Virus record (IMG/VR): IMGVR_UViG_2687453424_000001
DNA from: a virus
Taxonomy: Duplodnaviria; Heunggongvirae; Uroviricota; Caudoviricetes
Strand: one strand, 5' to 3'
Length of the DNA: 64,000 bases
Part shown: positions 10,401 through 63,839 of the stretch, piece after piece
Layout of the letters: each line of letters starts with the position of its first letter
Numbering within the stretch: the first letter of the stretch is position 1
Translations under genes and position numbers: made by a program
Notes under the pieces: generated by a model
Told to the model about the DNA's origin: nothing
The model's input: the letters and a program-made list of their open reading frames with translations, nothing else
Database searches by the model: none

Positions 10401-10499
10401 ATCTCCTTTACCCCGGCTGAAGGAAGGGATTCAGCCCGGTCAGCTGACCCATCTCATCCTGGGATTGCAGCCCTGGGGCTGGAAGGGGATTCAGCTCCG

Positions 10500-10660
10500 T
10501 CCCATAAACACCAGAAACCCACAGGAGCTCTCACTTCCTCAGAAGGTGAAAATGTACCATTATGTAGATGATGTCTTAATCAGAGATTCCCCCACAAAGG
10601 CAGGGGAAGCAGCAACAGCAGTGTGGGAAGCACTACAGGATGTCAAAGTTCCACCTGAGC
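10500..10660 (+). mobile_element. possible retroviral RT fragment (YVDD motif)
   Basis: Plus-strand translation ..LPQKVKMYHYVDDVLIRDSPTKAGEAATAVWEALQDV.. contains a YxDD polymerase motif; short, no flanking RT motifs recognised. Confidence 0.3.
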
Positions 10661-11061
10661 AACGTCAGAAGCCAAGTAGAAACCAGCAGATCAATGCTCC
10701 CACCCAACTTGGTGTTGGCCGCAAATTTACACATCCCAGTATGGAGCAGTGTGGACCAGCTTGCACCAGTACAGACCAACATAGGCCACTATGGCCCCAG
10801 ATACTGCTGGGGTTTTAATATCCCAGTGCTCCCAGTCCCTGCTGCAGGTCTTCCCACTTGCAGCTGTGCTCAACTCCCAATCCCTTCCAGTGCTCCCACT
10901 ACCTGCTGCAGGTGCTCCCAGTCCTTCCCAGTCCCTCCCAGTGCTCCCAGTCCTTGCCACAGGTGCTCCTGCTCATCCCCCACCAGACCTCCTTGGTCTT
11001 TTTCAGAAGGACACCCCAAATTAGGCAACCCCCACTCTGGGGCTGGCCCTGCCGACTCCCT
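10660..11061 (-). mobile_element. CR1-like LINE fragment, divergent subfamily, runs into gap
   Basis: DNA parallels the CR1 ORF2 region seen at 56930-57275 (..cagcagatcaatg.tcccacc...gcaaatttacacatcccagtatggagcag..); cccagtgctcccagtcc direct sub-repeats. Confidence 0.55.
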
Positions 11062-16975: not shown

Positions 16976-17950
16976 ACACTCCCCAGACCCACAAATACCC
17001 CCCAAGTGACCCCCATCGAGCCACATCTGCCTGCCAAGTGACCCCCCAGAGACCCCCAGACACACAACTGCCCCCCATGTGACCCCAAATTGACTCCGCA
17101 GACCAACCACTGCGACCCAAGTGACCCTGAAGTGACCCCCCAGACCCACAACTATCTCCAAAGTGACCCCCAAGGGACCACCCATACCTACAACTGCCCC
17201 CAAATGACCACCAAGCAACCACCTAGACCCCCAACTGTCCCCAAATTGACCCCCACGTGACCCCCATCGAGCCACAGCTGTCCCCCAAGTGACCCCAAAT
17301 TGACTCCCCAGACCCACAACTGCCTCACAAGTGACCCCAAGTGACCACCCAGTCCCACAACTGTCCCCCAAGTGACCCCAAATTGACTCCCCAGACCCAC
17401 AACTGCCCCACAAGTTACCCCAAGTAAGCACCCAGACCCACAAGTGCCCTGCATGTGACCCTCCAGACCCACAAATGCCCCCCCAAGTGACTCCAAATTG
17501 ACTCCATAGACCAAAAACTGCCTCTCAAGTGACCCCCCAGTGACTTCCAGAACCACAACTGCCCCCAAGTGTCCCTAAAGATATCCCCATAGAGCCAAAA
17601 ACTGCCCCCCAAGTGACCCCAAATTGACTCCCCAGACCCACATCTCCCGCCAAGTGACCACCCAGGCAAACAACTGCCCCCCCAAGTGACTCCCCAGACT
17701 CAAAACTGCCTCCCAAGTGACACCCTAGACCCACAACTGCCTCCTAAGTGACCCCTGAGTAAACCCGCAGATCCACAACTGTCATTCAAGTGGCCCCCAG
17801 GTGTCCACCCAGACGCACAACAAACCCAAGTGACCCCCAAGTGGCACGTCAGACCTACACCTCCACCTCCAGTGACCTCCCAGTCACCCCCAAACCCACT
17901 CCTGCCCCTCAAATGACTCCCCAGACCCACAACTGCCCCCCAGGTTGGGG
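16975..17950. repeat. tandem minisatellite, ~31-bp unit (caagtgaccccccagacccacaactgccccc) with frequent 11-bp insert (caaattgactc) giving 42-bp units
   Basis: More than 20 degenerate tandem units read directly; same satellite recurs at 63840-64000. Confidence 0.85.
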
Positions 17951-26728: not shown

Positions 26729-26924
26729 GGCAGTGCAAGTGTAAGCAGTGGTCAAATGGGAAAGGACTTTTAGTGGCTCTGGACTAAGCTAGAAAGAGCT
26801 GAGAACTTCCAACTGTATAAATACTCTTCCCATTTTCAGTCATCCGTAGAATACTTTATACGCCAAAGGAAAAATGTCAGCAGTGTTCTACTGGTAAATA
26901 AATAACACAGGCAAAATGATTTTT

Positions 26925-27480
26925 GATGAGAAAATGAACATGAGCCGGCTGTGCAGTCGCTTGGGGTATTGTGTGCAGTTCTGGTGTCCTCAACATAAAA
27001 AGGACATGGAACTGTTGGAGCAAGTCCAGAGGAGGGCCACAAGGATGATCAGGGGACTGGAGCACCTCCCATATGAAGACAGGCTGAGGAAGTTGGGGCT
27101 GTTCAGCCTGGAGAAGAGAAGGCTGCGTGGAGACCTCAGAGCAGCCTTCCAGTATCTGAAGGGGGCCTTAAGTATGCTGGAGAGGGGCTCTTCACTAGGG
27201 ACTGTAGTGATAGGACAAGGGGTAACATGCTCAAACATAAACAGGGGAAGTTTATATTGGATCTAAGGAAGAAGTTCTTGACTGTAAGGGTGGTGAGGCA
27301 CTGGAAGAGGTTGCCCAGGGAAGCTGTGAATGCTCCATTCCTGGCGGTGTTCAAGGCCGTTTTGGATAGAGCCTTGGGTGACATGGTTTAGTGGGAGGTG
27401 TCCCTGCCCATAGCAGGGGGGTTGGAACTAGATGATCTTAAGGTCCTTTCCAACCCTAACTATTCTATGATTCTACAATT
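26925..27480 (+). mobile_element. CR1 LINE 3' fragment (ORF2 C-terminus and 3' end)
   Basis: Plus-strand translation ..[56 protein letters not shown]..; ends with ..ggttggaactagatgatcttaaggtcctttccaaccctaactattctatgattc. Confidence 0.85.
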
Positions 27481-27539
27481 CTAAGGCCATGCCGAGCCTC
27501 TCTTGTGCACCTCAGACTCATCTGAGTCATAAGTACAAG

Positions 27540-28083
27540 TAGTGAACTTTACAATCAAGTTGGATTTTATCTGATATCCCTTGTGATTATCAGAGCTGGA
27601 CAAAGCACTGCTTCAGAGCAAACCTGACTCCCATCCAACCTGGCCTTGAACACTGCCAAGGATGGGGCAGCCACAGCTTCTCTGGGCACTCAGTGCCTGC
27701 ACCTCAGCACCCTCACAGGGAAGTACTTTGTCTTAATATCCAAGATAAATCTTCCTTTTTTCAGCTTAAAGCCATTCCCACTTGTCCTCTCAGTGCACAG
27801 CCTTTTAAAATGCCCCTCTCCAGACTTCCTGTAGGCCCTGTCTAGGTATGAGCAGCTTGCTAAGATGTCTCCTTGGAGCCTTCTCTTCTTCAGGCTTAAA
27901 AACTCCAGCTCTCACAGCTGTCATCATTGGAGATGCACTCCATCCCTTAGCGAATCTCTGTGACTCTTCATAAGCCCATCGTTATAGGACCATGAAACAA
28001 CAGAGGTTGGAAGGGAACCCACAAGGTCTCGAGTCCAACCAATTGGGAACAGGATCAGAGCAGAGTGGCTCAGGGCTTGAAAC
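27540..28083 (-). mobile_element. CR1-like 3' fragments (two pieces, second is a 3'-terminus motif at ~27990-28083)
   Basis: ..catccaacctggccttgaacactgccaaggatggggcagccacagcttctctgggcac..cctcacagggaag.. and ..ggttggaagggaacccacaaggtctcgagtccaacc..gtggctcagggc.. Confidence 0.6.
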
Positions 28084-28084
28084 A

Positions 28085-28294
28085 GTCTGAGTTGGAAATC
28101 TGATGAAAGATCGATTGGCAATCCGGGCAATCATCACGGTAAAAAAACAGAACTTTATCAGAATGATTAGCGAGCGTCACGACCGGTCGCTGTTTTTCCA
28201 CGTGATTCACGTATTGATGACTAGCAAAACCACTAACAGCTAAAACCACCACGATTACCGCTAGGACTTTGCTAACCCGTTTAATTAAGGTCAC
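28085..28294 (-). CDS. membrane-anchored thioredoxin-like (CxxC) protein, 3'-truncated at the bacterial/host junction; GTG start
   Basis: MTLIKRVSKVLAVIVVVLAVSGF (TM anchor) ...VLFFYRDDCPDCQSIF (CPDC active-site motif); start overlaps the upstream gene by 14 nt; ORF ends inside CR1-like host sequence. Confidence 0.6.
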
Positions 28295-28898
28295 TGGCTT
28301 TAAAGCTACTACCTAAATTTTGTACCGCGGTGATTCGATTCGTGGTGGTATCGAAGGTCACCTGGTAAAGCACCGTCGCCTTTTGCCAGTCGTTATCGCC
28401 ACTCTTGCTTTGGTAACTAACAACCGCCAAGCCTTTCATGTTTCGCCCCTGCTTACTTTGTGTATACATATTCAGTTGGTTTAACTTGGCTGAAACACTA
28501 TTGCTATCGCCATAAGTCCCTTTATTGGAAAAGTATTGCTGATATAACTTGTCGGAAATCAAGTTTTTAACGCCATCTTTACGCTGACCGTAGGTCTTGG
28601 GCTTAAAGTTATTCATGACATCAAAGAACTTGGTGACCACCGTATTAAAGCTAAGTTCAGCCGGACTTTTGTCTTTATTATTTTGGTAGGTCTTATAACT
28701 GTCAATTTGGGTGCTCAATAACTGCTTTTGTTGGTTGGTTTTAGTCAATTGCTGACTAACTTGTCGCTTCTGTTGTTGTAAGCGCGTGATCTGCTGATGC
28801 GCCTGTTTAACTTGGCTATGTTGATAGGCATTCGCCCCTAATGACAGAACTAAGATCAAGCTACCAATCACAACACTTAAAACCATGCTACGCTTCAT
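28281..28898 (-). CDS. VirB8-like T4SS membrane protein (PrgL/TraM-like topology: N-terminal TM, coiled coil, globular domain)
   Basis: 205-aa ORF MKRSMVLSVVIGSLILVLSLGANA..; Q/K-rich coiled-coil segment; RBS aaggaggg ~7 nt upstream of ATG; family call from topology and operon context only. Confidence 0.5.
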   Translation of the reverse strand: MKRSMVLSVVIGSLILVLSLGANAYQHSQVKQAHQQITRLQQQKRQVSQQLTKTNQQKQLLSTQIDSYKTYQNNKDKSPAELSFNTVVTKFFDVMNNFKPKTYGQRKDGVKNLISDKLYQQYFSNKGTYGDSNSVSAKLNQLNMYTQSKQGRNMKGLAVVSYQSKSGDNDWQKATVLYQVTFDTTTNRITAVQNLGSSFKASDLN

Positions 28899-28912
28899 TT
28901 GTTTGTCCCTCC
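28899..28912 (-). promoter_or_regulatory. Shine-Dalgarno site (AAGGAGGG) for the VirB8-like ORF
   Basis: Minus-strand taaggagggacaaacaaATG; the upstream gene's TAA stop abuts the RBS. Confidence 0.7.
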
Positions 28913-29767
28913 TTACTTCTTGATTGGCCGGGCTAACGTCACATCACCACCACTTAGCAAGCTATAAAAAGCGGTGCCAAAGGTGCTTTCGTTAACCTTG
29001 TCGCCTGTCCCACCTTGCTCAATAATCTTGGTGGCTTTGCCTTGCCATTTGCCTAACAGAATGGCCGTATGGCCGTTGTTTCCCGCGCCGGCGCCTTGAT
29101 TGACAATCACAATATCGCCGGCTTTCGCGTCATTTTCACTGATTTGTTTAAGATATTGATGACTGCCTTTGGCGTCACTGGCCATCGTGCCGGTAAACCA
29201 GCCCATGTTGGCGGGTACCTTGTAACCAGCTTTATTCAGGGCTAACCAGACAAAGCCGGAACAATCCGTGCCACCAGTTTTATTAGGATTTTTTAAATCG
29301 CTACCTAGATCAGGACTGGGGTGCGTTTGCACATAGTAGAAGTCCCCCTTCATGCTTTCCGCGTTTTTGACGATACTACCGCCGGAATAACTCGGGTCAC
29401 TATCACAACCTAGCTCGGTCAGATCGCCGGAACTCGCGTTGTCTAAGGTATTGCCCGCTACTGGATCACTGGCACCAAACACGGAATACCAGTGATCGGC
29501 ATAACCGTATCTTTGGCTTAAATACCATTGCTCCGGGTTTTTGCTCATGCCCTCAAAATCCATCAACCAGTCTTTGGTCGCTTTGTGCACGTCCGTGTAT
29601 TTGAATATCTTCTTATTTGACGCATAGTAACTACTGTTCAATTCTTGGTCGAGATAATCTAATTGCACCCCGAGATTTGTGGCTGGTTTGTTTTCTTTGT
29701 GAGCTAAGTCTTCCAGTTTATCTTTTCGGCCACCTAACCACTGGGCTAATCCCGTGGCACCGGAACT
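28913..29767 (-). CDS. CHAP-domain peptidoglycan hydrolase (T4SS-associated cell-wall hydrolase), C-terminal 285 aa; 5' part in gap
   Basis: ..GGTDCSGFVWLALNKAGY.. (catalytic Cys) and ..NGHTAILLG.. (His) CHAP signature; stop TAA at 28913-28915. Confidence 0.8.
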   Translation of the reverse strand, partial: SSGATGLAQWLGGRKDKLEDLAHKENKPATNLGVQLDYLDQELNSSYYASNKKIFKYTDVHKATKDWLMDFEGMSKNPEQWYLSQRYGYADHWYSVFGASDPVAGNTLDNASSGDLTELGCDSDPSYSGGSIVKNAESMKGDFYYVQTHPSPDLGSDLKNPNKTGGTDCSGFVWLALNKAGYKVPANMGWFTGTMASDAKGSHQYLKQISENDAKAGDIVIVNQGAGAGNNGHTAILLGKWQGKATKIIEQGGTGDKVNESTFGTAFYSLLSGGDVTLARPIKK

Positions 29768-32700
29768 NNNNNNNNNNNNNNNNNNNNNNNNNNNNNNNNN
29801 NNNNNNNNNNNNNNNNNNNNNNNNNNNNNNNNNNNNNNNNNNNNNNNNNNNNNNNNNNNNNNNNNNNNNNNNNNNNNNNNNNNNNNNNNNNNNNNNNNNN
29901 NNNNNNNNNNNNNNNNNNNNNNNNNNNNNNNNNNNNNNNNNNNNNNNNNNNNNNNNNNNNNNNNNNNNNNNNNNNNNNNNNNNNNNNNNNNNNNNNNNNN
30001 NNNNNNNNNNNNNNNNNNNNNNNNNNNNNNNNNNNNNNNNNNNNNNNNNNNNNNNNNNNNNNNNNNNNNNNNNNNNNNNNNNNNNNNNNNNNNNNNNNNN
30101 NNNNNNNNNNNNNNNNNNNNNNNNNNNNNNNNNNNNNNNNNNNNNNNNNNNNNNNNNNNNNNNNNNNNNNNNNNNNNNNNNNNNNNNNNNNNNNNNNNNN
30201 NNNNNNNNNNNNNNNNNNNNNNNNNNNNNNNNNNNNNNNNNNNNNNNNNNNNNNNNNNNNNNNNNNNNNNNNNNNNNNNNNNNNNNNNNNNNNNNNNNNN
30301 NNNNNNNNNNNNNNNNNNNNNNNNNNNNNNNNNNNNNNNNNNNNNNNNNNNNNNNNNNNNNNNNNNNNNNNNNNNNNNNNNNNNNNNNNNNNNNNNNNNN
30401 NNNNNNNNNNNNNNNNNNNNNNNNNNNNNNNNNNNNNNNNNNNNNNNNNNNNNNNNNNNNNNNNNNNNNNNNNNNNNNNNNNNNNNNNNNNNNNNNNNNN
30501 NNNNNNNNNNNNNNNNNNNNNNNNNNNNNNNNNNNNNNNNNNNNNNNNNNNNNNNNNNNNNNNNNNNNNNNNNNNNNNNNNNNNNNNNNNNNNNNNNNNN
30601 NNNNNNNNNNNNNNNNNNNNNNNNNNNNNNNNNNNNNNNNNNNNNNNNNNNNNNNNNNNNNNNNNNNNNNNNNNNNNNNNNNNNNNNNNNNNNNNNNNNN
30701 NNNNNNNNNNNNNNNNNNNNNNNNNNNNNNNNNNNNNNNNNNNNNNNNNNNNNNNNNNNNNNNNNNNNNNNNNNNNNNNNNNNNNNNNNNNNNNNNNNNN
30801 NNNNNNNNNNNNNNNNNNNNNNNNNNNNNNNNNNNNNNNNNNNNNNNNNNNNNNNNNNNNNNNNNNNNNNNNNNNNNNNNNNNNNNNNNNNNNNNNNNNN
30901 NNNNNNNNNNNNNNNNNNNNNNNNNNNNNNNNNNNNNNNNNNNNNNNNNNNNNNNNNNNNNNNNNNNNNNNNNNNNNNNNNNNNNNNNNNNNNNNNNNNN
31001 NNNNNNNNNNNNNNNNNNNNNNNNNNNNNNNNNNNNNNNNNNNNNNNNNNNNNNNNNNNNNNNNNNNNNNNNNNNNNNNNNNNNNNNNNNNNNNNNNNNN
31101 NNNNNNNNNNNNNNNNNNNNNNNNNNNNNNNNNNNNNNNNNNNNNNNNNNNNNNNNNNNNNNNNNNNNNNNNNNNNNNNNNNNNNNNNNNNNNNNNNNNN
31201 NNNNNNNNNNNNNNNNNNNNNNNNNNNNNNNNNNNNNNNNNNNNNNNNNNNNNNNNNNNNNNNNNNNNNNNNNNNNNNNNNNNNNNNNNNNNNNNNNNNN
31301 NNNNNNNNNNNNNNNNNNNNNNNNNNNNNNNNNNNNNNNNNNNNNNNNNNNNNNNNNNNNNNNNNNNNNNNNNNNNNNNNNNNNNNNNNNNNNNNNNNNN
31401 NNNNNNNNNNNNNNNNNNNNNNNNNNNNNNNNNNNNNNNNNNNNNNNNNNNNNNNNNNNNNNNNNNNNNNNNNNNNNNNNNNNNNNNNNNNNNNNNNNNN
31501 NNNNNNNNNNNNNNNNNNNNNNNNNNNNNNNNNNNNNNNNNNNNNNNNNNNNNNNNNNNNNNNNNNNNNNNNNNNNNNNNNNNNNNNNNNNNNNNNNNNN
31601 NNNNNNNNNNNNNNNNNNNNNNNNNNNNNNNNNNNNNNNNNNNNNNNNNNNNNNNNNNNNNNNNNNNNNNNNNNNNNNNNNNNNNNNNNNNNNNNNNNNN
31701 NNNNNNNNNNNNNNNNNNNNNNNNNNNNNNNNNNNNNNNNNNNNNNNNNNNNNNNNNNNNNNNNNNNNNNNNNNNNNNNNNNNNNNNNNNNNNNNNNNNN
31801 NNNNNNNNNNNNNNNNNNNNNNNNNNNNNNNNNNNNNNNNNNNNNNNNNNNNNNNNNNNNNNNNNNNNNNNNNNNNNNNNNNNNNNNNNNNNNNNNNNNN
31901 NNNNNNNNNNNNNNNNNNNNNNNNNNNNNNNNNNNNNNNNNNNNNNNNNNNNNNNNNNNNNNNNNNNNNNNNNNNNNNNNNNNNNNNNNNNNNNNNNNNN
32001 NNNNNNNNNNNNNNNNNNNNNNNNNNNNNNNNNNNNNNNNNNNNNNNNNNNNNNNNNNNNNNNNNNNNNNNNNNNNNNNNNNNNNNNNNNNNNNNNNNNN
32101 NNNNNNNNNNNNNNNNNNNNNNNNNNNNNNNNNNNNNNNNNNNNNNNNNNNNNNNNNNNNNNNNNNNNNNNNNNNNNNNNNNNNNNNNNNNNNNNNNNNN
32201 NNNNNNNNNNNNNNNNNNNNNNNNNNNNNNNNNNNNNNNNNNNNNNNNNNNNNNNNNNNNNNNNNNNNNNNNNNNNNNNNNNNNNNNNNNNNNNNNNNNN
32301 NNNNNNNNNNNNNNNNNNNNNNNNNNNNNNNNNNNNNNNNNNNNNNNNNNNNNNNNNNNNNNNNNNNNNNNNNNNNNNNNNNNNNNNNNNNNNNNNNNNN
32401 NNNNNNNNNNNNNNNNNNNNNNNNNNNNNNNNNNNNNNNNNNNNNNNNNNNNNNNNNNNNNNNNNNNNNNNNNNNNNNNNNNNNNNNNNNNNNNNNNNNN
32501 NNNNNNNNNNNNNNNNNNNNNNNNNNNNNNNNNNNNNNNNNNNNNNNNNNNNNNNNNNNNNNNNNNNNNNNNNNNNNNNNNNNNNNNNNNNNNNNNNNNN
32601 NNNNNNNNNNNNNNNNNNNNNNNNNNNNNNNNNNNNNNNNNNNNNNNNNNNNNNNNNNNNNNNNNNNNNNNNNNNNNNNNNNNNNNNNNNNNNNNNNNNN

Positions 32701-35083
32701 NNNNNNNNNNNNNNNNNNNNNNNNNNNNNNNNNNNNNNNNNNNNNNNNNNNNNNNNNNNNNNNNNNNNNNNNNNNNNNNNNNNNNNNNNNNNNNNNNNNN
32801 NNNNNNNNNNNNNNNNNNNNNNNNNNNNNNNNNNNNNNNNNNNNNNNNNNNNNNNNNNNNNNNNNNNNNNNNNNNNNNNNNNNNNNNNNNNNNNNNNNNN
32901 NNNNNNNNNNNNNNNNNNNNNNNNNNNNNNNNNNNNNNNNNNNNNNNNNNNNNNNNNNNNNNNNNNNNNNNNNNNNNNNNNNNNNNNNNNNNNNNNNNNN
33001 NNNNNNNNNNNNNNNNNNNNNNNNNNNNNNNNNNNNNNNNNNNNNNNNNNNNNNNNNNNNNNNNNNNNNNNNNNNNNNNNNNNNNNNNNNNNNNNNNNNN
33101 NNNNNNNNNNNNNNNNNNNNNNNNNNNNNNNNNNNNNNNNNNNNNNNNNNNNNNNNNNNNNNNNNNNNNNNNNNNNNNNNNNNNNNNNNNNNNNNNNNNN
33201 NNNNNNNNNNNNNNNNNNNNNNNNNNNNNNNNNNNNNNNNNNNNNNNNNNNNNNNNNNNNNNNNNNNNNNNNNNNNNNNNNNNNNNNNNNNNNNNNNNNN
33301 NNNNNNNNNNNNNNNNNNNNNNNNNNNNNNNNNNNNNNNNNNNNNNNNNNNNNNNNNNNNNNNNNNNNNNNNNNNNNNNNNNNNNNNNNNNNNNNNNNNN
33401 NNNNNNNNNNNNNNNNNNNNNNNNNNNNNNNNNNNNNNNNNNNNNNNNNNNNNNNNNNNNNNNNNNNNNNNNNNNNNNNNNNNNNNNNNNNNNNNNNNNN
33501 NNNNNNNNNNNNNNNNNNNNNNNNNNNNNNNNNNNNNNNNNNNNNNNNNNNNNNNNNNNNNNNNNNNNNNNNNNNNNNNNNNNNNNNNNNNNNNNNNNNN
33601 NNNNNNNNNNNNNNNNNNNNNNNNNNNNNNNNNNNNNNNNNNNNNNNNNNNNNNNNNNNNNNNNNNNNNNNNNNNNNNNNNNNNNNNNNNNNNNNNNNNN
33701 NNNNNNNNNNNNNNNNNNNNNNNNNNNNNNNNNNNNNNNNNNNNNNNNNNNNNNNNNNNNNNNNNNNNNNNNNNNNNNNNNNNNNNNNNNNNNNNNNNNN
33801 NNNNNNNNNNNNNNNNNNNNNNNNNNNNNNNNNNNNNNNNNNNNNNNNNNNNNNNNNNNNNNNNNNNNNNNNNNNNNNNNNNNNNNNNNNNNNNNNNNNN
33901 NNNNNNNNNNNNNNNNNNNNNNNNNNNNNNNNNNNNNNNNNNNNNNNNNNNNNNNNNNNNNNNNNNNNNNNNNNNNNNNNNNNNNNNNNNNNNNNNNNNN
34001 NNNNNNNNNNNNNNNNNNNNNNNNNNNNNNNNNNNNNNNNNNNNNNNNNNNNNNNNNNNNNNNNNNNNNNNNNNNNNNNNNNNNNNNNNNNNNNNNNNNN
34101 NNNNNNNNNNNNNNNNNNNNNNNNNNNNNNNNNNNNNNNNNNNNNNNNNNNNNNNNNNNNNNNNNNNNNNNNNNNNNNNNNNNNNNNNNNNNNNNNNNNN
34201 NNNNNNNNNNNNNNNNNNNNNNNNNNNNNNNNNNNNNNNNNNNNNNNNNNNNNNNNNNNNNNNNNNNNNNNNNNNNNNNNNNNNNNNNNNNNNNNNNNNN
34301 NNNNNNNNNNNNNNNNNNNNNNNNNNNNNNNNNNNNNNNNNNNNNNNNNNNNNNNNNNNNNNNNNNNNNNNNNNNNNNNNNNNNNNNNNNNNNNNNNNNN
34401 NNNNNNNNNNNNNNNNNNNNNNNNNNNNNNNNNNNNNNNNNNNNNNNNNNNNNNNNNNNNNNNNNNNNNNNNNNNNNNNNNNNNNNNNNNNNNNNNNNNN
34501 NNNNNNNNNNNNNNNNNNNNNNNNNNNNNNNNNNNNNNNNNNNNNNNNNNNNNNNNNNNNNNNNNNNNNNNNNNNNNNNNNNNNNNNNNNNNNNNNNNNN
34601 NNNNNNNNNNNNNNNNNNNNNNNNNNNNNNNNNNNNNNNNNNNNNNNNNNNNNNNNNNNNNNNNNNNNNNNNNNNNNNNNNNNNNNNNNNNNNNNNNNNN
34701 NNNNNNNNNNNNNNNNNNNNNNNNNNNNNNNNNNNNNNNNNNNNNNNNNNNNNNNNNNNNNNNNNNNNNNNNNNNNNNNNNNNNNNNNNNNNNNNNNNNN
34801 NNNNNNNNNNNNNNNNNNNNNNNNNNNNNNNNNNNNNNNNNNNNNNNNNNNNNNNNNNNNNNNNNNNNNNNNNNNNNNNNNNNNNNNNNNNNNNNNNNNN
34901 NNNNNNNNNNNNNNNNNNNNNNNNNNNNNNNNNNNNNNNNNNNNNNNNNNNNNNNNNNNNNNNNNNNNNNNNNNNNNNNNNNNNNNNNNNNNNNNNNNNN
35001 NNNNNNNNNNNNNNNNNNNNNNNNNNNNNNNNNNNNNNNNNNNNNNNNNNNNNNNNNNNNNNNNNNNNNNNNNNNNNNNNNNN
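29768..35083. other. assembly gap (N run) inside the bacterial block
   Basis: continuous n. Confidence 1.
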
Positions 35084-35311
35084 CTTTAGTGACTTGACCT
35101 TATCTGGCAAGGTATAAGTTAAAACAACCTTCTGGTCTTGCTCAACAACATTAACTAACTGCAAGAAATTGGGATCAGCTTGCTTTAATTCGTTTAGCTC
35201 ACTTAATTGGTCGTAGCGAAATTGATTGTGATTGAGTTCGAGGATTAGCTTGTTCCCTTGTCGTTTGAACGTGCCAACCTCAATATTCAATAGCTGGTTT
35301 GCTTTACTCAT
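35084..35311 (-). CDS. hypothetical protein, N-terminal 76 aa; may be the N-terminus of the CHAP hydrolase or a separate gene
   Basis: ATG at 35311-35309 overlaps the VirB4-like stop (35304-35306) by 8 nt; strong RBS gaaggaggg upstream; MSKANQLLNIEVGTFKRQGNKLILELNHNQ.. Confidence 0.5.
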
Positions 35312-37168
35312 TTAAAGTCCCTCCTTCTTCTTCGGTGGTGGTCAAGGCGTCAATTTCACTCGGTGTCAGGATCACACGCTTTTGATAATCCGGTTGTCCG
35401 GCGGTCTCACGGTTGTATTTTTCTTGGTAAGCTTCTGGGTCGATTAACCGCAATTCTTCTTCGGTTAGCTCCACCCGCATAAAAGCGCGTTGGCTACCAT
35501 AGATCATCAGGGCTTCACCTTGTCTACGGCGTTCTAGTAACTTCTTTTCCTTATCCGAGAACGTCATTCTTAACTTAGTAATGACATCATCAACACCTTT
35601 ACCATCAAGGCCAAAGAATACCTTGGTATAGGAGTTCCCAATAATGGCTTCACCAATGTTCTGCCCAGTATCTGTCGTTCCTTCAATCACATCTTGAATT
35701 TGTTGCGTTCCGGCAATCGCCCCGGCATTGTACTTTCTAAAGCGCTTATAGGCTTGATGGAAAAAGGTAGCGGCCGCTTTATGCAAGGTCAGAAAATGAA
35801 ATTCGTCAACAAACAATTTCTTGCGGCTATGCCGATCTTTCGTGATTTCGTCCCACAAATATTGAAAAGTATTCAGGTAGGCTGCTGATTGGACTTCCTG
35901 TTCACTTTGCAGCGGTTTTAAATCAAAGGAAATGATCTTGCCCTTTAAGTTGACGTTGGTGTGTCCGTCAAATAGGCTGTTAGAACCATGGGTATAACTG
36001 CCTAAGATGTAGTAGAAGTCTTTAACCCGACTGAATTTGTCAGCGTCCTTATCAGCTAGTTTTTCCAACTCGTCATAGACATTGGATAAGGTCGGCCACT
36101 GATCGTCTTTAATCTCTTTTAAGCGGCTATATTTCAAAACGCCACTGTTGACATAAGCCTGTTTAACAACATCATCAAGGATTGCCAATTCAACTTGGGT
36201 AATCCCGGTTTTGAGGACTTCAAAGAATCCCTTTAGTCGTTGAATTTTATCTTTGACTAGTAAATCAAGGTTTGTGACCGCTTCATCAGCGCTTAGGATT
36301 TCTTCGGAAAAGATTTGTAGCGGGTTAATTTTGTACTTCGCATTGGAAGTTAAATGCAAGACTGCCCCACCCAAGGCTTCAACAATCTTGGTATATTCAT
36401 TTTCTGGATCAATAATGTAGAGTTGATAGTCTTGAATGGCATAGCGTAGGATTTTTTGGATCATATAGGTGGTCTTGCCGACCCCACTGGTACCAATAAC
36501 CACCATGTTTTGGTTCAACGTTTTGTTGCGATCCAACATATCCACGGCAATTAAGCTGTTGGTGTCTTTGTTAACCCCTTCAATATCGCTTCTAGGCTTT
36601 AAGTCCAAAATCTCGGCGTCATCAAAAGGAAACATGCTGCTGGCAACTTCGGTATTACTTTCCTTATACGTATAATCGCCTAATAGATTTTCGTTGATTG
36701 GCATAGTAGACCAAAAACTTTGAAAAGTTGCTTTAACGGGCACTAAGGGCTTCATTTGTAGCTTAATCAGTGTATTTTTAACGTTGTCAGTTAAATCGTC
36801 TAGTTCCGCTAAACTGTTAGCCCGCAGATAAACCAGCATATGTTGGTACACAAATGTGGTAGAATTATCGAGGTATTTATCTAGTTGCATATTGGCCGAA
36901 TCAATATAATTTTGCAGAATTTTCTTTTTATACGGGTCGAACGTATTTAGCTTCTGCGCTTCCTTATTTTGGATCGTCTTTTTGTAATAGGTAATCATTG
37001 AATTGTTACTGGCGCTGTCGATATATTGCACAATATCGATAACGCCTTTTTTGCGCTTTAATTCTGATAGCCAGTTGCCGTGAACTCGCTTGGGATAGTC
37101 AGCAATCGCTAACACCCGGATAAAGTTCTCCCCCGACTGCACGTAGGTGGGGTACTGTTCCCAACTGC
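35304..37168 (-). CDS. VirB4-like conjugative T4SS ATPase (TraE/PrgJ/TcpF family), C-terminal ~620 aa; 5' end truncated at the bacterial/host junction
   Basis: Walker A NMVVIGTSGVGKTTYMIQKI; Walker B KKLFVDEFHFL; C-terminal AGAIAGTQQIQDV; the first ~66 codons of ORF-track ORF 35304-37364 are read-through into GC-rich host DNA. Confidence 0.85.
35312..35325 (-). promoter_or_regulatory. Shine-Dalgarno site (GAAGGAGGG) inside the 3' end of the VirB4-like gene
   Basis: Minus-strand gaagaaggagggacttta-ATG. Confidence 0.65.
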
Positions 37169-38159
37169 AGGTAGTCTCATGTCCCTTTGATGGCTGGAAC
37201 CCCAAGAGGTGTAGCATGGAGACAAGAAAGATGAGGAGGGTGGATGCCCCCTGCATGAAGGGGAAACTTGGATTTCTGGAGGTCCTCTGTGTGACAGGGA
37301 ACAGGTGGGGTTGGCTTTTGTGACTGAGGATCAGAGGAGTGGATAAGAGGGACATTGTGCTCACAGTTACAAACTACTTGCTCAGGGAGGGGAAACAGAA
37401 AAGGTCTTTTGTCAGCACCTGAGGAAGCCTCCAGGCTAATGAGCAGGTACCTTGCAGGTAATTGCCCTGGTGGTCCCTGGCCATGCAAAGCAACAGGGTG
37501 CAACAATGTGGAGGGTCTTGGCACAACCGGTTAACACAGGTGCAGGGCGGGCCAACAAGGGTGATGCTCCCCTGGAAAAGCTGCTCAGGATGTGATCATC
37601 AGTGTCAGCCTTGGCTGTCATGAGCATGCAATAGTGGGGACTCAGATGCTAAAGGGCATGAGGAAGGCCAGCAGCAGAGAACAGACTCTGGACTTACTTG
37701 GGGACAATTCCAGGAGTTTCCATGGGAAGCGGCTCTGATGGTGAAGGAGCATGAGCAAGTCTGCTAACGATCCCTGAGCCTGGAATACCTGGAGGGCTTC
37801 CAAGGTCCACCAGGGCTTTTGCCACCTTTCTGAATGCCGGTCAGGCTCCTGAGGGCTTTAGCACAGTTGCAGAGCACCAGCGCATTCTGGAATGGCCGGT
37901 GTTATTCCTCAGCCTTGCCAGAGCCTGCTGAGGCCTCTGCCTCCATCTAGAATGCTTGGGGAGATTCTGCAGGATTGGTGCAGACTGCCAGGGCCCTGCC
38001 ATGTTCTGCAATGTTGGGTGTCCTTCCAAGCGTGCTGGTGCAAGCACTTCCCTGGGCATTGCTGGAACCCTCCAGTTTCCCAGCAGGGCCTTCGCCGCCT
38101 TCCAGTAGCCTCGATGTGCTGCCGCGGTGCTGTGGTTTAAGTCCAGTCAGTAATTCAGA

Positions 38160-38290
38160 ACCACGTAGTCGCTCGCTCACTCTCCCCCCTTCCTCCCCCC
38201 CACTCCCAGAGGGATGGGAAGGAGAATCGAAAAAATATAACTCGCACAGGTTGAGATAAGAACAGTCAAGTAACTAAGGAATAGCACAAA
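38160..38290 (-). repeat. LTR-like repeat, partial copy, interrupted by CR1
   Basis: ..gtggtttaagtccagtcag..ctcccccttcctccccc..cccagagggatgggaaggagaatcgaaa..ggttgagataagaacag..taactaagg.. matches 63290-63440. Confidence 0.6.
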
Positions 38291-41200
38291 CCACAGCCGC
38301 TACCACCAGTAATAATAGTAGAATCATAGAATCGTAGAATCATAGAATAGTTAGGATGGGAAAGGACCTTAAGACCNNNNNNNNNNNNNNNNNNNNNNNN
38401 NNNNNNNNNNNNNNNNNNNNNNNNNNNNNNNNNNNNNNNNNNNNNNNNNNNNNNNNNNNNNNNNNNNNNNNNNNNNNNNNNNNNNNNNNNNNNNNNNNNN
38501 NNNNNNNNNNNNNNNNNNNNNNNNNNNNNNNNNNNNNNNNNNNNNNNNNNNNNNNNNNNNNNNNNNNNNNNNNNNNNNNNNNNNNNNNNNNNNNNNNNNN
38601 NNNNNNNNNNNNNNNNNNNNNNNNNNNNNNNNNNNNNNNNNNNNNNNNNNNNNNNNNNNNNNNNNNNNNNNNNNNNNNNNNNNNNNNNNNNNNNNNNNNN
38701 NNNNNNNNNNNNNNNNNNNNNNNNNNNNNNNNNNNNNNNNNNNNNNNNNNNNNNNNNNNNNNNNNNNNNNNNNNNNNNNNNNNNNNNNNNNNNNNNNNNN
38801 NNNNNNNNNNNNNNNNNNNNNNNNNNNNNNNNNNNNNNNNNNNNNNNNNNNNNNNNNNNNNNNNNNNNNNNNNNNNNNNNNNNNNNNNNNNNNNNNNNNN
38901 NNNNNNNNNNNNNNNNNNNNNNNNNNNNNNNNNNNNNNNNNNNNNNNNNNNNNNNNNNNNNNNNNNNNNNNNNNNNNNNNNNNNNNNNNNNNNNNNNNNN
39001 NNNNNNNNNNNNNNNNNNNNNNNNNNNNNNNNNNNNNNNNNNNNNNNNNNNNNNNNNNNNNNNNNNNNNNNNNNNNNNNNNNNNNNNNNNNNNNNNNNNN
39101 NNNNNNNNNNNNNNNNNNNNNNNNNNNNNNNNNNNNNNNNNNNNNNNNNNNNNNNNNNNNNNNNNNNNNNNNNNNNNNNNNNNNNNNNNNNNNNNNNNNN
39201 NNNNNNNNNNNNNNNNNNNNNNNNNNNNNNNNNNNNNNNNNNNNNNNNNNNNNNNNNNNNNNNNNNNNNNNNNNNNNNNNNNNNNNNNNNNNNNNNNNNN
39301 NNNNNNNNNNNNNNNNNNNNNNNNNNNNNNNNNNNNNNNNNNNNNNNNNNNNNNNNNNNNNNNNNNNNNNNNNNNNNNNNNNNNNNNNNNNNNNNNNNNN
39401 NNNNNNNNNNNNNNNNNNNNNNNNNNNNNNNNNNNNNNNNNNNNNNNNNNNNNNNNNNNNNNNNNNNNNNNNNNNNNNNNNNNNNNNNNNNNNNNNNNNN
39501 NNNNNNNNNNNNNNNNNNNNNNNNNNNNNNNNNNNNNNNNNNNNNNNNNNNNNNNNNNNNNNNNNNNNNNNNNNNNNNNNNNNNNNNNNNNNNNNNNNNN
39601 NNNNNNNNNNNNNNNNNNNNNNNNNNNNNNNNNNNNNNNNNNNNNNNNNNNNNNNNNNNNNNNNNNNNNNNNNNNNNNNNNNNNNNNNNNNNNNNNNNNN
39701 NNNNNNNNNNNNNNNNNNNNNNNNNNNNNNNNNNNNNNNNNNNNNNNNNNNNNNNNNNNNNNNNNNNNNNNNNNNNNNNNNNNNNNNNNNNNNNNNNNNN
39801 NNNNNNNNNNNNNNNNNNNNNNNNNNNNNNNNNNNNNNNNNNNNNNNNNNNNNNNNNNNNNNNNNNNNNNNNNNNNNNNNNNNNNNNNNNNNNNNNNNNN
39901 NNNNNNNNNNNNNNNNNNNNNNNNNNNNNNNNNNNNNNNNNNNNNNNNNNNNNNNNNNNNNNNNNNNNNNNNNNNNNNNNNNNNNNNNNNNNNNNNNNNN
40001 NNNNGTCCTCGTGGCCCTCCTCTGGACTTGTTCCAACAGTTCCATGTCCTTTTTATGTTGAGGACACCAGAACTGCACACAATACCCAAGTGAGGTCTCA
40101 CGAGAGCAGAGTAGTGGGGCAGGATCACCTCCTTCGACCTGCTGCTCACGCTCATTTTGATGCAGCCCAGGATACGGTTGCTTTCTGGGCTGCGAGCACA
40201 CACTGCAGCTGGCTCATGTTCATTTTTCATCGACCAACACCCCCAAGTCTTTCTCCACAGGGCTGCTCTGGATCTCTGCTATCCCCAACCTGTAGCTGTG
40301 CCTGGGATTGCTCCGACCCAGGTGTAGGACCTTGCACTTGGCATGGTTAAACTTCATCAGGTTGGCATCAGCCCACCTCACAAGCGTGTCGAGGTCCCTC
40401 TGCATGGCATCCCTTCCCTCCGGCGTATCAACCGAACCACACAGCTTGGTGTCATCGGCAAACTTGCTGAGGGCGCACTCAATCCCACTGTCCATGTCAG
40501 CGACAAAGATGTTGAACAAGACCGATCCCAACACTGATCCCTGAGGAACACCACTTGTTACCGGTCTCCAGCTGGACATCGAGCCATTGACCACAACTCC
40601 TTGCGTGCGGCCATCCAGCCAGATCTTTATCCACCGAGTGGTCCACCCATCAAATTGATGTCTCTCCAATTAGAGACAAGGATGTCATGTCGGACAGTGT
40701 CGAACGCTTTGCACAAGTCCAGGTAGATGACCTCAGCTGCTCTACCCCTATCCATCAGTTCCATAGCCCCATCATAGAAGGCCACCAAATTGATCAGGCA
40801 GGATTTCCCCTTTGTGAAGCCATGCTGGCTGTCACCAACCACCTCCTTGTTTTTCATGTGCCTTAGCATGCCTTGCAGGAGAATCTGCTCCAAGAGTTTG
40901 CCAGGCACAGAGGTGAGACTGACTGCTCTGTAATTCCCCTGATCATCCATTTTCCCCTTCTTGAAAACAGGGGCTATATTTCCCTTTTCCCAGTCATCGG
41001 GAGCTTCACCTGACTGCCATGATCTTTCAAATATGATGGACTGTGTAAACTTCATTTGCCAGCTCCTTCAGGACCCGTAGATGGATTTCATTAGGTCCCA
41101 TGGACATGTGCACGTTCAGGTTCTTAAGATGGTCTTGAACCAGATCCTGTCTTACAGTGGGCCCAAGGTCTTCATTCTCACAGTCCCTGCTTCTGCCTTC

Positions 41201-41515
41201 CAAGACTTGGGTGATGTGGTCAGAGCCTTTGCCAGTGAAGACTGAGGCAAAGAAGTAATTCAGAACCTCAGCCTTCTCCAAATCCAGGGTAGCCAGTTCT
41301 CCTGCTAGTTTCTGGAGGGGGCCTATGTTGTCCCTAGTCTGTCTTTTATTTGCTACATACCTATAGAATCCCTTCCTGTTATCTTTCACATCCCTAGCCA
41401 AGTTTAATTCTAACTGGGCCTTAGCTTTCCTAACCTGGTCCATAGCTTCTCAGACAACATCCCTGTATTCTTCCCAGGCTGCCTTCCACCATCCCCTAAA
41501 GTTCAAATGCTTTTT
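38290..41515 (-). mobile_element. CR1 LINE, long copy with reverse-transcriptase ORF2 (3' end at ~38290; internal gap; 5' part runs into gap)
   Basis: Minus ORFs: ..[13 protein letters not shown].. (RT FADD motif), ..[18 protein letters not shown].., ..[10 protein letters not shown].., ..[19 protein letters not shown]..; octamer repeats gaatcatagaatcgtagaat at 38290-38340. Confidence 0.9.
38377..40004. other. assembly gap (N run) inside CR1
   Basis: continuous n. Confidence 1.
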
Positions 41516-55204: not shown

Positions 55205-55455
55205 AATAGTCAGGACCCTACAGGAGAGCATCTCTCTGCGTCCCAGGAGCCCAGCCCAGCTCAGCAGCAGAGGCCCAGCCCAAGGTGGCTCTGCCTCTGC
55301 CCGGCTGGGCACCATCCAGGGCTCCCTGGTGCTCCAGGGGAACACCATGGGAAACAGCCTGAAGCAAGCACTGATGTTCCCTCCCTCAGCTGGCAGACAC
55401 ACTGCCTGCCTGCAGTGTCATTTCTCTGATGAGAGACAGAGTTTGGTCTGAACAA
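55205..55455. repeat. duplicated segment, copy 2 (paralogue of 9959-10184)
   Basis: See copy 1. Confidence 0.7.
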
Positions 55456-55660
55456 CAAGATTTTGTAGAATCATGGAACCATTTAGGCTGGAAAAGAACC
55501 TTAAGATCATTGAGTCCAACATTAACCAAACACTGGCAAGTCAACACATTAAGCATGTCCCTTAGAACATGTCTATTAAATACCTCCAGGGTTGATGACA
55601 AAACCACTTCTGCAGGCAGCCTGTTTCTTGTCCCATTATTAGACACCCTCTCACAGTAGA
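55455..55660 (-). mobile_element. CR1 LINE 3'-terminal fragment (paralogue of 10185-10400)
   Basis: Minus ORF ..NGTRNRLPAEVVLSSTLEVFNRHVLRDML..GLNDLKVLFQPK.. Confidence 0.7.
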
Positions 55661-56139
55661 ATGGGGTTTTGCTGAGCATGGCTCTTCCTGTGACCTATTC
55701 AAACTGACCCTAATGGACCAAAAAGAACTTTAATGTTCAAATCACCTCTTTTAAATACACTGAACCAACACATTTTGAGTGGGAAAAGGGACTCTTGTCT
55801 TTAGTCCCAGCAGTAAAACAAACTGAGAACACTAATCAAGAACAATCTTCCATTCAATCCATTCAGTCAACTTCATAGTATCCCAAAGGGAACTGCTCCT
55901 CAGGATGGAGCTGCACAAACCCACTGGCAGAAAACGGCATGCCTACCTACCGGGGTTTGCAGAGGAAGTGAAATTACCTGAAGGACAGACTGAAGTTTCC
56001 AAACTACTGCAGATGCCTGTAAATGCAGAGCCATCAGCGTTACAACAACCTTTCAAACCCTCAACAGGTTTAGAAGCACCTCCCTTCACCAAGGGAGCAC
56101 CAACAGAAAATACCTTGTTCACCGGTGCCTCAGCAAAAG

Positions 56140-63835: not shown

Positions 63836-63839
63836 CAAG

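What the first reader, a model, noticed from the sequence alone, without database searches (positions are those of the whole stretch)
37140..37200. Right junction: VirB4-like gene loses its 5' end and is fused in-frame to GC-rich host DNA
ORF-track ORF 35304-37364 begins with ~66 codons (MSTMSLLSTPLILSHKSQPH...) of GC-rich, non-bacterial-looking sequence before bacterial VirB4-like sequence starts (..YPTYVQSGENFIRVLAIADYPKR..). VirB4 homologues are usually longer than the ~620 aa present, so the gene is 5'-truncated at about 37165. A PstI-like ctgcag sits at the breakpoint.
Basis: partly seen in the sequence, partly recalled or inferred. Interest (0 to 1): 0.55.

Follow-up and report, generated by a model that had tools for sequence, protein, structure and literature searches.

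The report
Contaminant chimera: plasmid gene abutting bird DNA
A conjugation ATPase gene from a lactic-acid-bacterium plasmid really is cut off at its start and joined to bird DNA here, but the sequence comes from a public assembly of a laboratory E. coli strain, so it is almost certainly contaminant DNA stitched together during library making or assembly.

Summary
ORF 35304-37364 (-) is a VirB4-type conjugation ATPase. Residues 53-672 are 99% identical in protein to Lactiplantibacillus plasmid homologues. Its first 52 codons are replaced by 66 codons of unrelated GC-rich DNA. The breakpoint is exact: 37167 is the last plasmid base and 37168 the first foreign base. The CTGCAG is created by the join (CTG foreign, CAG plasmid).

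The window is part of record LN877770.1, the 454/Newbler assembly of E. coli MC1061(phi24B). It contains no E. coli DNA. It consists of short avian contigs (CR1, ERV, OR14 sequences) separated by N gaps, plus one Lactobacillaceae plasmid fragment (28096-37167) cut mid-gene at both ends.

So the "host" is not a host. Three organisms share one record, which points to contamination and a chimeric join. The open upstream frame is chance (P about 0.13). The plasmid genes show no decay (75 synonymous against 6 non-synonymous codon changes, no indels). The junction occurs nowhere else in the collections searched.

The practical consequence is a spurious public protein, CUQ97495.1 "protein TrsE [Escherichia coli]". 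True integration into a bird genome cannot be formally excluded without the raw reads, but I rate it about 3%.

The parts
35304..37167 (-). Remnant of a VirB4-type (TrsE/TraE-like, 'DUF87') conjugative type IV secretion ATPase gene: codons 53-672 plus the stop codon. Walker A (GTSGVGKT) and Walker B (LFVDEFH) motifs are intact.
   Evidence: 95.0% ungapped nucleotide identity to L. plantarum BK-021 plasmid NZ_CP044235.1. 607 of 612 residues identical. Pfam PF19044, PF01935, PF12846 and PF03135 all score above their cut-offs. PDB 4AG5 VirB4 ATPase domain matches at E = 7e-43. Codon differences are 75 synonymous against 6 non-synonymous.
37167..37168 (.). Right breakpoint: 37167 is the last plasmid-derived base and 37168 the first avian-type base. 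This corresponds to about position 3,071,074 of LN877770.1.
   Evidence: Base-by-base comparison with the plasmid; ends of the megablast matches.
37165..37170 (.). CTGCAG hexamer created by the join: on the minus strand, CTG comes from the foreign side and CAG from the plasmid side.
   Evidence: The relatives have ATTCAG at this position, encoding a conserved Phe.
37168..37373 (-). Stop-free run of avian-type DNA that extends the VirB4 frame upstream. GTG at 37364, ATG at 37355, in-frame stop at 37374-37376. It is translated in the public record as the first 63 residues of CUQ97495.1.
   Evidence: No similarity to VirB4 N-termini. The chance of such an open run is 0.13.
37168..38376 (.). Right flank, avian-type DNA with GC 0.52-0.58. 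Positions 37168 to about 38128 have no copy elsewhere in the window. Positions 38128-38376 are interspersed repeat with a CR1-like 3' end.
   Evidence: No match in plasmids at distant sensitivity or in E. coli genomes. Repeat copies in other contigs of the window. The ORF ending ...PNYSMILRFYDS resembles avian CR1 3' ends; that resemblance is from my own knowledge, not a tool result.
35084..35311 (-). First 76 codons of the next tra gene ('conjugal transfer protein', annotated EssB/YukC-like in some plasmids). It runs into the assembly gap.
29768..35083 (.). Assembly gap of 5316 N, present in the public record. The same interval is 1494 bp in each of the four related plasmids where I measured it.
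28913..29767 (-). 3' part (284 codons) of the tra-operon cell-wall hydrolase, with phage-tail-lysozyme and NlpC/P60 domains.
   Evidence: Pfam PF18013 and PF00877; plasmid annotation.
28281..28898 (-). Complete 205-aa hypothetical tra-operon protein.
28096..28294 (-). First 66 of 122 codons of a thioredoxin-family gene, cut by the left breakpoint (28096 plasmid, 28095 avian). The frame reads on for 8 codons into avian DNA.
26729..28095 (.). Left flank: avian interspersed repeats of CR1 type.
   Evidence: A translated segment in the left flank (about 27740-27960, minus strand) has named relatives only in birds, Grus japonensis and Limosa lapponica. Repeat copies occur in other contigs of the window.

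Best explanation
The junction is an artefact in a contaminated public assembly, not a biological gene fusion.

The window is part of LN877770.1 (GCA_001405275.1), the assembly of the laboratory strain E. coli MC1061(phi24B). That assembly was made from a 454 Titanium 8-kb mate-pair library with Newbler. Besides E. coli reads, the data evidently contained DNA from a bird and from a Lactobacillaceae conjugative plasmid. These were assembled into short contigs and linked by mate pairs, which explains the runs of roughly 1.6-5.4 kb of N.

A plasmid fragment runs from codon 53 of the VirB4-type ATPase gene to codon 66 of a thioredoxin-family gene. It became joined at both ends to avian sequence, most likely through chimeric library molecules or reads, or through assembler joins. 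The annotation pipeline then extended the truncated ATPase frame to the first ATG in the avian DNA. That produced the spurious chimeric protein CUQ97495.1.

Shown: the provenance, the three-organism composition, the exact breakpoints, the intact undecayed state of the plasmid genes, and the chance nature of the open frame.

Inferred: that the join arose in vitro or in silico rather than in a living cell, and which step made it.
For: Provenance:
- The exact 683-aa chimeric product is encoded only in GCA_001405275.1 / LN877770.1, a record of 5,027,063 bp.
- The same sequence is NCBI protein CUQ97495.1, 'protein TrsE [Escherichia coli]'.
- LN877770.1 is cited as the genome of strain MC1061 (PMC10203433).
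- The source paper describes 5,027,118 bp in 15 scaffolds, 454 GS-FLX Titanium, an 8-kb mate-pair library and Newbler (PMC4651098).
- The N runs are in the public record itself.

Composition:
- No contig of the window matches any of 5,426 complete E. coli genomes.
- Plasmid similarity is confined to 28096-29767 and 35084-37167.
- An OR14-like ORF hits bird olfactory receptors for essentially all of its top 120 matches: every named hit is avian, and two ENA entries are unnamed.
- A left-flank repeat has only avian named relatives.

Nature of the fragment:
- Both ends cut genes mid-codon.
- Gene order matches the tra operon of more than 170 Lactobacillaceae plasmids.
- There are no indels. Of 91 nucleotide differences, 71 fall at third codon positions. 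Codon changes are 75 synonymous against 6 non-synonymous. The divergence therefore arose under selection in bacteria, with no sign of decay afterwards.

Fusion frame:
- P = 0.13 for an open run of this length, and no promoter-like site upstream.

Independent occurrence:
- The junction 30-mer is absent from the metagenome and GTDB genome collections.
- The neighbouring 205-aa protein is also found only in this record.
Against: - Both junctions lie inside contigs, not across gaps. The two plasmid blocks face each other in the correct order and orientation, which is also what a real insertion would look like.
- The plasmid blocks have high consensus quality with no indels over 3.7 kb, yet neither contig continues along the plasmid. 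Newbler normally breaks a contig where reads diverge. Few reads can therefore have carried the plasmid continuation, which a single stray chimeric read does not explain well.
- About 960 nt next to the right junction looks single-copy. That is unexpected for trace contamination from a genome of about 1.2 Gb.
- I could not see the raw reads or the rest of the record.
Confidence: 0.88

Rival explanations
1. The junction is physically real but man-made. A hybrid DNA molecule, such as a co-ligated or rearranged insert in a clone or library handled in the same facility, carried bird DNA and a Lactobacillus plasmid fragment. It was sequenced at moderate depth alongside the E. coli sample.
For: - The contigs run through both junctions without a branch, and the plasmid blocks have clean consensus.
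- Avian contigs of 1-5 kb, including apparently single-copy sequence, suggest enrichment rather than trace whole-genome contamination.
- With the scaffold's gap size the plasmid fragment measures about 9.1 kb, and with the relatives' spacing about 5.25 kb. Both are of the order of a cloned or size-selected fragment.
Against: - No vector sequence was seen.
- The two junctions share no restriction site. CTGCAG occurs only at the right junction and is half foreign.
- Nothing in the source paper mentions such material.
Confidence: 0.07
2. This is a genuine horizontal transfer. A fragment of a Lactobacillaceae conjugative plasmid integrated by end-joining into the genome of the bird whose DNA contaminated the run, and the window shows that insertion.
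For: - The arrangement is insertion-like: bird, then collinear plasmid fragment, then bird.
- The junctions are sharp with 0-1 nt of ambiguity, as in end-joining.
- The fragment comes from a DNA-transfer (type IV secretion) plasmid.
Against: - The record is an E. coli lab-strain assembly containing DNA of two further organisms.
- The plasmid genes show no decay at all.
- There is no independent occurrence of the junction.
- The gap size disagrees with every relative measured, 5316 against 1494.
- The prior for bacterium-to-bird germline transfer is very low (established knowledge).
Confidence: 0.03
3. The 683/686-aa ORF is a functional fusion protein: a new N-terminus on a VirB4 ATPase, expressed in some cell.
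For: The ORF is uninterrupted and is annotated as a protein in the public record.
Against: - The N-terminal 66 residues have no relatives among VirB4 proteins.
- An open frame of this length is expected by chance 13% of the time.
- No promoter-like site was found upstream, and I see no ribosome-binding motif in the read sequence.
- The conserved N-terminal segment EDFTKLIDRDSLHSLFPF is lost.
- The upstream partner genes of the operon (TrsD etc.) are absent.
Confidence: 0.01

Closest known systems
VirB4-family ATPases of Gram-positive conjugative type IV secretion systems (TrsE of staphylococcal pSK41/pGO1, TraE of pIP501, PrgJ of pCF10; 'DUF87 domain-containing / VirB4 family type IV secretion system protein' of Lactiplantibacillus plasmids)
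   Same: - 99% protein identity over residues 53-664 to WP_180895944.1 of an L. plantarum plasmid.
- The sequence belongs to the same 90% cluster of 2,718 members, named VirB4 family / TrsE.
- Walker A and B motifs are present, and the Pfam and PDB 4AG5 matches agree.
- The downstream tra genes follow in the usual order.
   Different: - The first 52 residues are missing, including a conserved segment.
- The upstream operon genes are absent.
- The gene sits next to avian DNA in a record labelled E. coli.
Eukaryotic contamination of bacterial genome assemblies that creates spurious annotated proteins (Breitwieser et al. 2019, PMC6581058: human repeat DNA in 2,250 bacterial and archaeal genomes)
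   Same: - Vertebrate DNA rich in interspersed repeats sits inside a bacterial genome record.
- It was translated by the annotation pipeline into a protein now in public databases under the bacterium's name.
   Different: - The contaminant is avian, not human.
- A second contaminant, a Lactobacillaceae plasmid, is joined to it.
- The spurious protein is a chimera of a real bacterial protein and translated avian non-coding DNA.
- The contaminant forms mate-pair scaffolds covering all 64 kb of this window rather than isolated small contigs.
Bona fide bacterial DNA insertions in animal genomes (e.g. Wolbachia insertions in insects and nematodes; from established knowledge)
   Same: Bacterial genes are cut at arbitrary points and flanked on both sides by animal repeats.
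   Different: Real cases sit in the animal's own assembly, are confirmed by reads, PCR or FISH, recur across individuals, and usually show decay. None of that is shown here, and the record is not even an animal assembly.

Membership tests
VirB4-family type IV secretion ATPase | P-loop NTPase core with Walker A (GxxGxGK[ST]) and Walker B (hhhhDE) | tested here: met
   GTSGVGKT and LFVDEFH are present in the translation. PF19044 P-loop_TraG scores 60.8 bits (cut-off 25.8), PF01935 30.6 (23.2) and PF12846 27.6 (27.5).
VirB4-family type IV secretion ATPase | VirB4/CagE/TrbE-type N-terminal domain ahead of the ATPase domain | tested here: met
   PF03135 CagE_TrbE_VirB scores 23.3 bits against a cut-off of 21, over residues 62-226. 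The match starts at profile position 46 in the full-length homologue as well, so the domain match itself is not cut by the breakpoint.
VirB4-family type IV secretion ATPase | Sequence similarity to a solved VirB4 ATPase domain | tested here: met
   4AG5/4AG6 (VirB4 component-like protein), E = 7e-43, query residues 200-573.
VirB4-family type IV secretion ATPase | Reaches the curated score of an NCBIfam VirB4 model | tested here: not met
   NF045975 scores 239.9 against a cut-off of 590, NF045971 204.3 against 325, and TIGR00929 85.2 against 643. The E-values are strong (4e-71 to 3e-24). The protein is therefore family-level VirB4 but not a member of those particular equivalogs.
VirB4-family type IV secretion ATPase | Complete coding sequence within a tra/T4SS operon | tested here: not met
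   The first 52 codons (155 nt) and all upstream operon genes are missing. The downstream genes are present but interrupted by a gap and truncated at 28096.
Genuine bacterium-to-animal horizontal gene transfer | Found in an assembly of the animal, with the flanks being that animal's contiguous locus | tested here: not met
   The record is E. coli MC1061(phi24B). Whether the two avian flanks are contiguous could not be tested, as no bird genome collection was available. The repeats in the window do not bridge the site.
Genuine bacterium-to-animal horizontal gene transfer | Junction seen in independent data | tested here: not met
   The exact chimeric protein and its neighbour are found only in this record. 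The junction 30-mer is absent from the metagenome and GTDB genome collections. These collections hold little bird DNA, so the negative result is weak.
Genuine bacterium-to-animal horizontal gene transfer | Signs of residence in the recipient, such as decay, amelioration or expression | tested here: not met
   All plasmid ORFs are intact with no indels. Codon changes are 75 synonymous against 6 non-synonymous. GC is 0.43 against 0.52 in the flanks.
Genuine bacterium-to-animal horizontal gene transfer | Read-depth and read-pair support equal to the host genome | not testable with these tools
Contaminant-derived chimeric contig / spurious protein in a bacterial assembly | DNA of organisms other than the labelled one, with the labelled organism absent locally | tested here: met
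   There is no E. coli match for any contig of the window. Avian sequence is shown, and Lactobacillaceae plasmid sequence.
Contaminant-derived chimeric contig / spurious protein in a bacterial assembly | An annotated protein that translates contaminant non-coding DNA | tested here: met
   CUQ97495.1 (683 aa) equals window 35304-37355 (-). Its first 63 residues are translated avian DNA.
Contaminant-derived chimeric contig / spurious protein in a bacterial assembly | Junction supported only by chimeric or duplicate reads, or carrying adaptor or linker traces | tested here: inconclusive
   No loxP linker or full adaptor lies at the junctions. Decamers matching 9 of 10 bases of the 3' ends of the 454 Titanium adaptors (adaptor sequences recalled from memory) abut both junctions: TCCAACTCAG at 28087-28096 and GGTAGTCTCA at 37170-37179. 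Matches that close occur only 2 and 4 times in about 50,000 positions. The match does not extend further into the adaptors, and it was found post hoc.

The most novel reading that the evidence does not exclude
The bird whose DNA contaminated this run really carries, in its genome, a 5-9 kb fragment of a Lactobacillaceae conjugative (type IV secretion) plasmid inserted by end-joining next to a CR1 element. That would be a very recent bacterium-to-vertebrate DNA transfer, caught by accident in an unrelated E. coli assembly.
Probability: 0.03. Interest if true: 0.8.

Novelty: not a real feature. Interest (0 to 1): 0.1.

Why it matters
As biology it does not matter. It is not a gene fusion or a transfer event that any cell is known to carry.

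It matters for database hygiene. LN877770.1 is cited as the reference genome of E. coli MC1061 (PMC10203433). It contains at least 64 kb of avian and Lactobacillaceae-plasmid sequence, placed about 21 kb from the phi24B prophage coordinates given in the source paper. That stretch contributes at least one chimeric protein, CUQ97495.1, and further Lactobacillus proteins to nr under the name Escherichia coli. Scans for horizontal transfer, pan-genome analyses or taxonomic classifiers that use this record could be misled.

If the 3% reading were true, it would be a rare documented case of plasmid DNA entering a vertebrate genome.

Tried and rejected
- **Looking up the 686-aa ORF from its GTG start.** Not on record. 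The ATG-start version, 683 aa, was found.
- **Fetching LN877770.1 from the E. coli collection.** It is not there, because that collection holds only RefSeq complete genomes. The rest of the record could not be inspected.
- **Searching papers for the assembly accession.** Nothing found. The record accession led to the strain name, and a search on 'MC1061' led to the source paper.
- **Testing whether the two avian flanks are one interrupted locus.** I joined them and compared the result with repeat copies in the window. No copy bridges the site. My comparison by eye with CR1 3' ends suggested the left flank starts inside a CR1 3' end but the right flank does not continue it. This is unresolved.
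- **Looking for the empty site or the junction elsewhere.** The avian 32-mer next to the junction and the junction 30-mer had no hit in metagenome contigs, and the junction 30-mer had no hit in GTDB genomes. A 115-aa avian ORF ending 10 nt from the junction is not on record.
- **Finding the exact source plasmid through the 205-aa protein.** It occurs only in this record. The best plasmids are 95-97.5% identical, so the source is not in PLSDB.
- **A protein search with an avian repeat segment of the left flank.** It gave only unnamed metagenome hits. A second segment gave bird names.
- **PstI cloning-site idea.** Rejected.
- **454 linker or adaptor at the junctions.** No linker was found, only short 9-of-10 adaptor-like decamers. 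I kept this as a weak lead, not as evidence.
- **Gap-size mismatch as proof of misassembly.** Rejected as proof, because an insertion such as an IS element in the source plasmid would explain it equally well.
Full report
**What is in the sequence**

The window is 64 kb, but only nine stretches are real sequence. These are contigs of 0.95-5.4 kb separated by runs of 1.6-5.4 kb of N.

The flagged ORF runs 35304..37364 on the minus strand: 686 aa with a GTG start. An in-frame ATG lies at 37355, and the nearest upstream in-frame stop is at 37376-37374.

GC content is 0.37-0.46 through the gene. It rises to 0.52-0.58 from about 37100 onward.

**The gene**

Pfam places the protein in the VirB4/TraG P-loop group. 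P-loop_TraG, DUF87, AAA_10 and CagE_TrbE_VirB all score above their cut-offs.

NCBIfam VirB4 models match with E-values from 4e-71 to 3e-24, but below their equivalog cut-offs. The solved VirB4 ATPase domain 4AG5 matches at 7e-43.

At the DNA level, 201 plasmid records match the 35084-37400 query, and in 172 of them one match covers at least 80% of it. Nearly all are conjugative plasmids of Lactiplantibacillus, Latilactobacillus, Levilactobacillus and relatives, at up to 95% identity.

The protein is 607/612 identical to residues 53-664 of WP_180895944.1 from L. plantarum BK-021 plasmid NZ_CP044235.1.

Thirteen full-length members of its 90% cluster are 671-672 aa. Like the 664-aa BK-021 protein, they all begin MSFGDKVIDLFMPTKKE…EDFTKLIDRDSLHSLFPF directly before SWEQYP. 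The window copy has unrelated residues there.

So 52 codons (155 nt) are missing and about 620 remain.

**The breakpoint**

In a base-by-base comparison with the plasmid, identity is perfect up to window base 37167 and random beyond it.

- Window, minus strand: …GAGACTACCTG|CAGTTGGGAACAG…
- Plasmid at the same place: …TTCCCATT|CAGTTGGGAACAG…

The CTGCAG at 37165-37170 is therefore half foreign. A PstI site in the source plasmid would require Cys in place of a Phe that is invariant in all homologues aligned. The other junction has no such site. I regard the hexamer as coincidence.

**The other end of the fragment**

Plasmid similarity in the whole window is confined to two blocks, 28096-29767 and 35084-37167.

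The left block carries three features:
- the 3' part of the operon's lysozyme/NlpC-P60 hydrolase;
- a complete 205-aa protein;
- the first 66 of 122 codons of a thioredoxin-family gene.

That block ends just as sharply, at 28096. The two blocks are collinear with the tra operon of the relatives.

In the four plasmids where I measured it (NZ_CP044235.1, NZ_CP050544.1, NZ_CP110243.1, NZ_CP058734.1), the blocks lie 1494 bp apart. In the window they are separated by 5316 N.

Both blocks align without any indel, at 97.5% and 95.0% identity. In the ATPase gene, 71 of 91 differences are at third codon positions. Codon changes are 75 synonymous against 6 non-synonymous. This is the pattern of divergence among functional bacterial genes. 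It shows no sign of neutral decay after leaving a bacterium.

**The flanks**

The flanks are avian.
- An OR14-type olfactory receptor fragment (5144-5554, -) finds bird OR14 proteins for essentially all of its top 120 hits: every named hit is avian, and two ENA entries carry no name. The best is 88% identical, from Rissa tridactyla.
- A repeat segment in the left flank, in the same contig as the plasmid block, has named relatives only in Grus japonensis and Limosa lapponica.
- CR1-type reverse-transcriptase ORFs (40223-41449) and a retroviral RT-like ORF (10309-10815) are present.
- The contigs share interspersed repeats at 67-97% identity.

The 1.2 kb right of the junction matches no plasmid, even at low stringency, and no E. 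coli genome. Reading the repeats as 'CR1' rests partly on my own knowledge of avian CR1 3' ends.

**Where the window comes from**

The ORF translated from its ATG (683 aa) is encoded in exactly one place in the collection: GCA_001405275.1, record LN877770.1, 5,027,063 bp. The fetched locus is identical to the window, N runs included.

From the two fetched loci, record coordinate = 3,108,241 − window coordinate.

The same sequence is NCBI protein CUQ97495.1, 'protein TrsE [Escherichia coli]'. LN877770.1 is cited as the genome of E. coli MC1061 (PMC10203433).

The matching source paper describes the MC1061(phi24B) genome as follows (PMC4651098):
- 5,027,118 bp in 15 scaffolds;
- 454 GS-FLX Titanium sequencing;
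- an 8-kb mate-pair library;
- assembly with Newbler;
- BioProject PRJEB9491.

No contig of the window matches any of 5,426 complete E. coli genomes.

The window is thus a non-E. coli stretch inside a record of a laboratory E. coli strain. The many gaps of roughly 4-5 kb are what 8-kb mate pairs give when they link short contigs. That last point is my inference.

**Interpretation**

A cloning strain of E. coli cannot carry bird chromosomal DNA with a Lactobacillus plasmid fragment inside it. The simplest reading is that reads from other material entered the data set, were co-assembled, and were joined at two points.

The annotation pipeline then extended the headless ATPase frame to the first ATG in the avian DNA.

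The 'in-frame fusion' needs no explanation:
- In the avian DNA of this window, 13% of positions have at least 66 open codons upstream.
- There is no promoter-like site upstream.
- I see no Shine-Dalgarno motif in the read sequence.

The phenomenon is the avian counterpart of human-repeat contamination that created spurious proteins in bacterial genomes (PMC6581058).

**What remains open**

I could not see the raw reads, so the step that made the join is inferred. Four observations do not fit a trivial 'one stray chimeric read' story.
- The contigs run through both junctions.
- The plasmid consensus is clean, yet the contigs do not continue along the plasmid.
- About 960 nt next to the right junction looks single-copy.
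- The arrangement mimics an insertion.

Decamers matching 9 of 10 bases of the 3' ends of the 454 Titanium adaptors (adaptor sequences recalled from memory) sit exactly at both junctions. Matches that close are rare in the window, occurring 2 and 4 times in about 50,000 positions. However, the match does not extend, contains substitutions, and was noticed post hoc. I report it only as a lead.

A man-made hybrid molecule (about 7%) or a real insertion in the contaminating bird's genome (about 3%) cannot be excluded. The junction was not found in any other collection searched, though those collections hold little bird DNA.

**Verdict**

The feature is best explained as contaminant DNA joined artefactually in a public E. 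coli assembly. Biological interest is low. The useful outcome is flagging LN877770.1 and CUQ97495.1 as contaminated and chimeric.

Noticed in passing
window 29768-35083: The N gap between the two plasmid blocks is 5316 bases, but the same interval is 1494 bp in each of the four related plasmids measured. Either the mate-pair gap estimate is off by 3.8 kb, or the source plasmid carries extra DNA there (an IS element or intron?), which would also explain why the contigs break.
   Followed up: partly
window 28087-28096 (-) and 37170-37179 (+): Decamers TCCAACTCAG and GGTAGTCTCA abut the left and right junctions. Each matches 9 of 10 bases of the 3' end of 454 Titanium adaptor A (TCCGACTCAG) and adaptor B (GGCAGTCTCA); the adaptor sequences are from memory. 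Matches that close occur only 2 and 4 times in about 50,000 positions, but they do not extend further into the adaptors. They may be remnants or coincidence.
   Followed up: partly
window 35304-37355 (-): The chimeric ORF is a public protein, CUQ97495.1 'protein TrsE [Escherichia coli]', inside a 2,718-member VirB4 cluster. The neighbouring 211-aa and 205-aa Lactobacillus-type gene products called on the same E. coli-labelled record were not checked in nr.
   Followed up: yes
window 28096-29767 versus 35084-37167: The two plasmid blocks have different closest relatives. The left block is 97.5% identical to Levilactobacillus brevis pLBN-3. The right block is 95.0% identical to L. plantarum BK-021 and only 93.4% to pLBN-3. 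The source plasmid is a mosaic not present in PLSDB.
   Followed up: partly
L001 9245-9270 (NZ_CP044235.1) versus window 35304-35330: The BK-021 homologue ends at ...TTE* because of a stop codon. The window copy and the 13 full-length cluster members aligned read on as ...TTEEEGGTLNE*. The 664-aa annotation is therefore a slightly shortened variant of a 672-aa family.
   Followed up: partly
window 5144-5554 (-): A stop-free 137-codon fragment of an OR14-type olfactory receptor. Its best hits are 85-88% identical, to kittiwake (Rissa tridactyla) proteins. No chicken, turkey, duck or zebra finch hit is near identity, so the contaminating bird is not a common laboratory or poultry species.
   Followed up: partly
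window 40223-41449 (-): A CR1-type reverse transcriptase is split over three reading frames, with open stretches of 140, 146 and 149 codons. Whether the two frameshifts are old mutations or 454 homopolymer errors was not examined.
   Followed up: no
window 9960-10973 and 55231-57275: Two copies of a retrovirus-like element (RT-like ORF with a YVDD motif at 10309-10815) share 89-92% identity about 45 kb apart.
   Followed up: no
window 16999-17923: A C-rich tandem array with a 42-nt period, about 22 copies and 66% matches. It accounts for the 235-codon 'GVTWG'-rich open frame on the minus strand. Related copies lie at 63835-64000.
   Followed up: no
window 1-64000 (record 3,044,241-3,108,240): In the source paper's coordinates the phi24B prophage lies at 3,129,539-3,186,979, only about 21 kb beyond the window. 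The contaminant stretch therefore sits in the middle of the concatenated 'chromosome', next to the region the authors later replaced.
   Followed up: no
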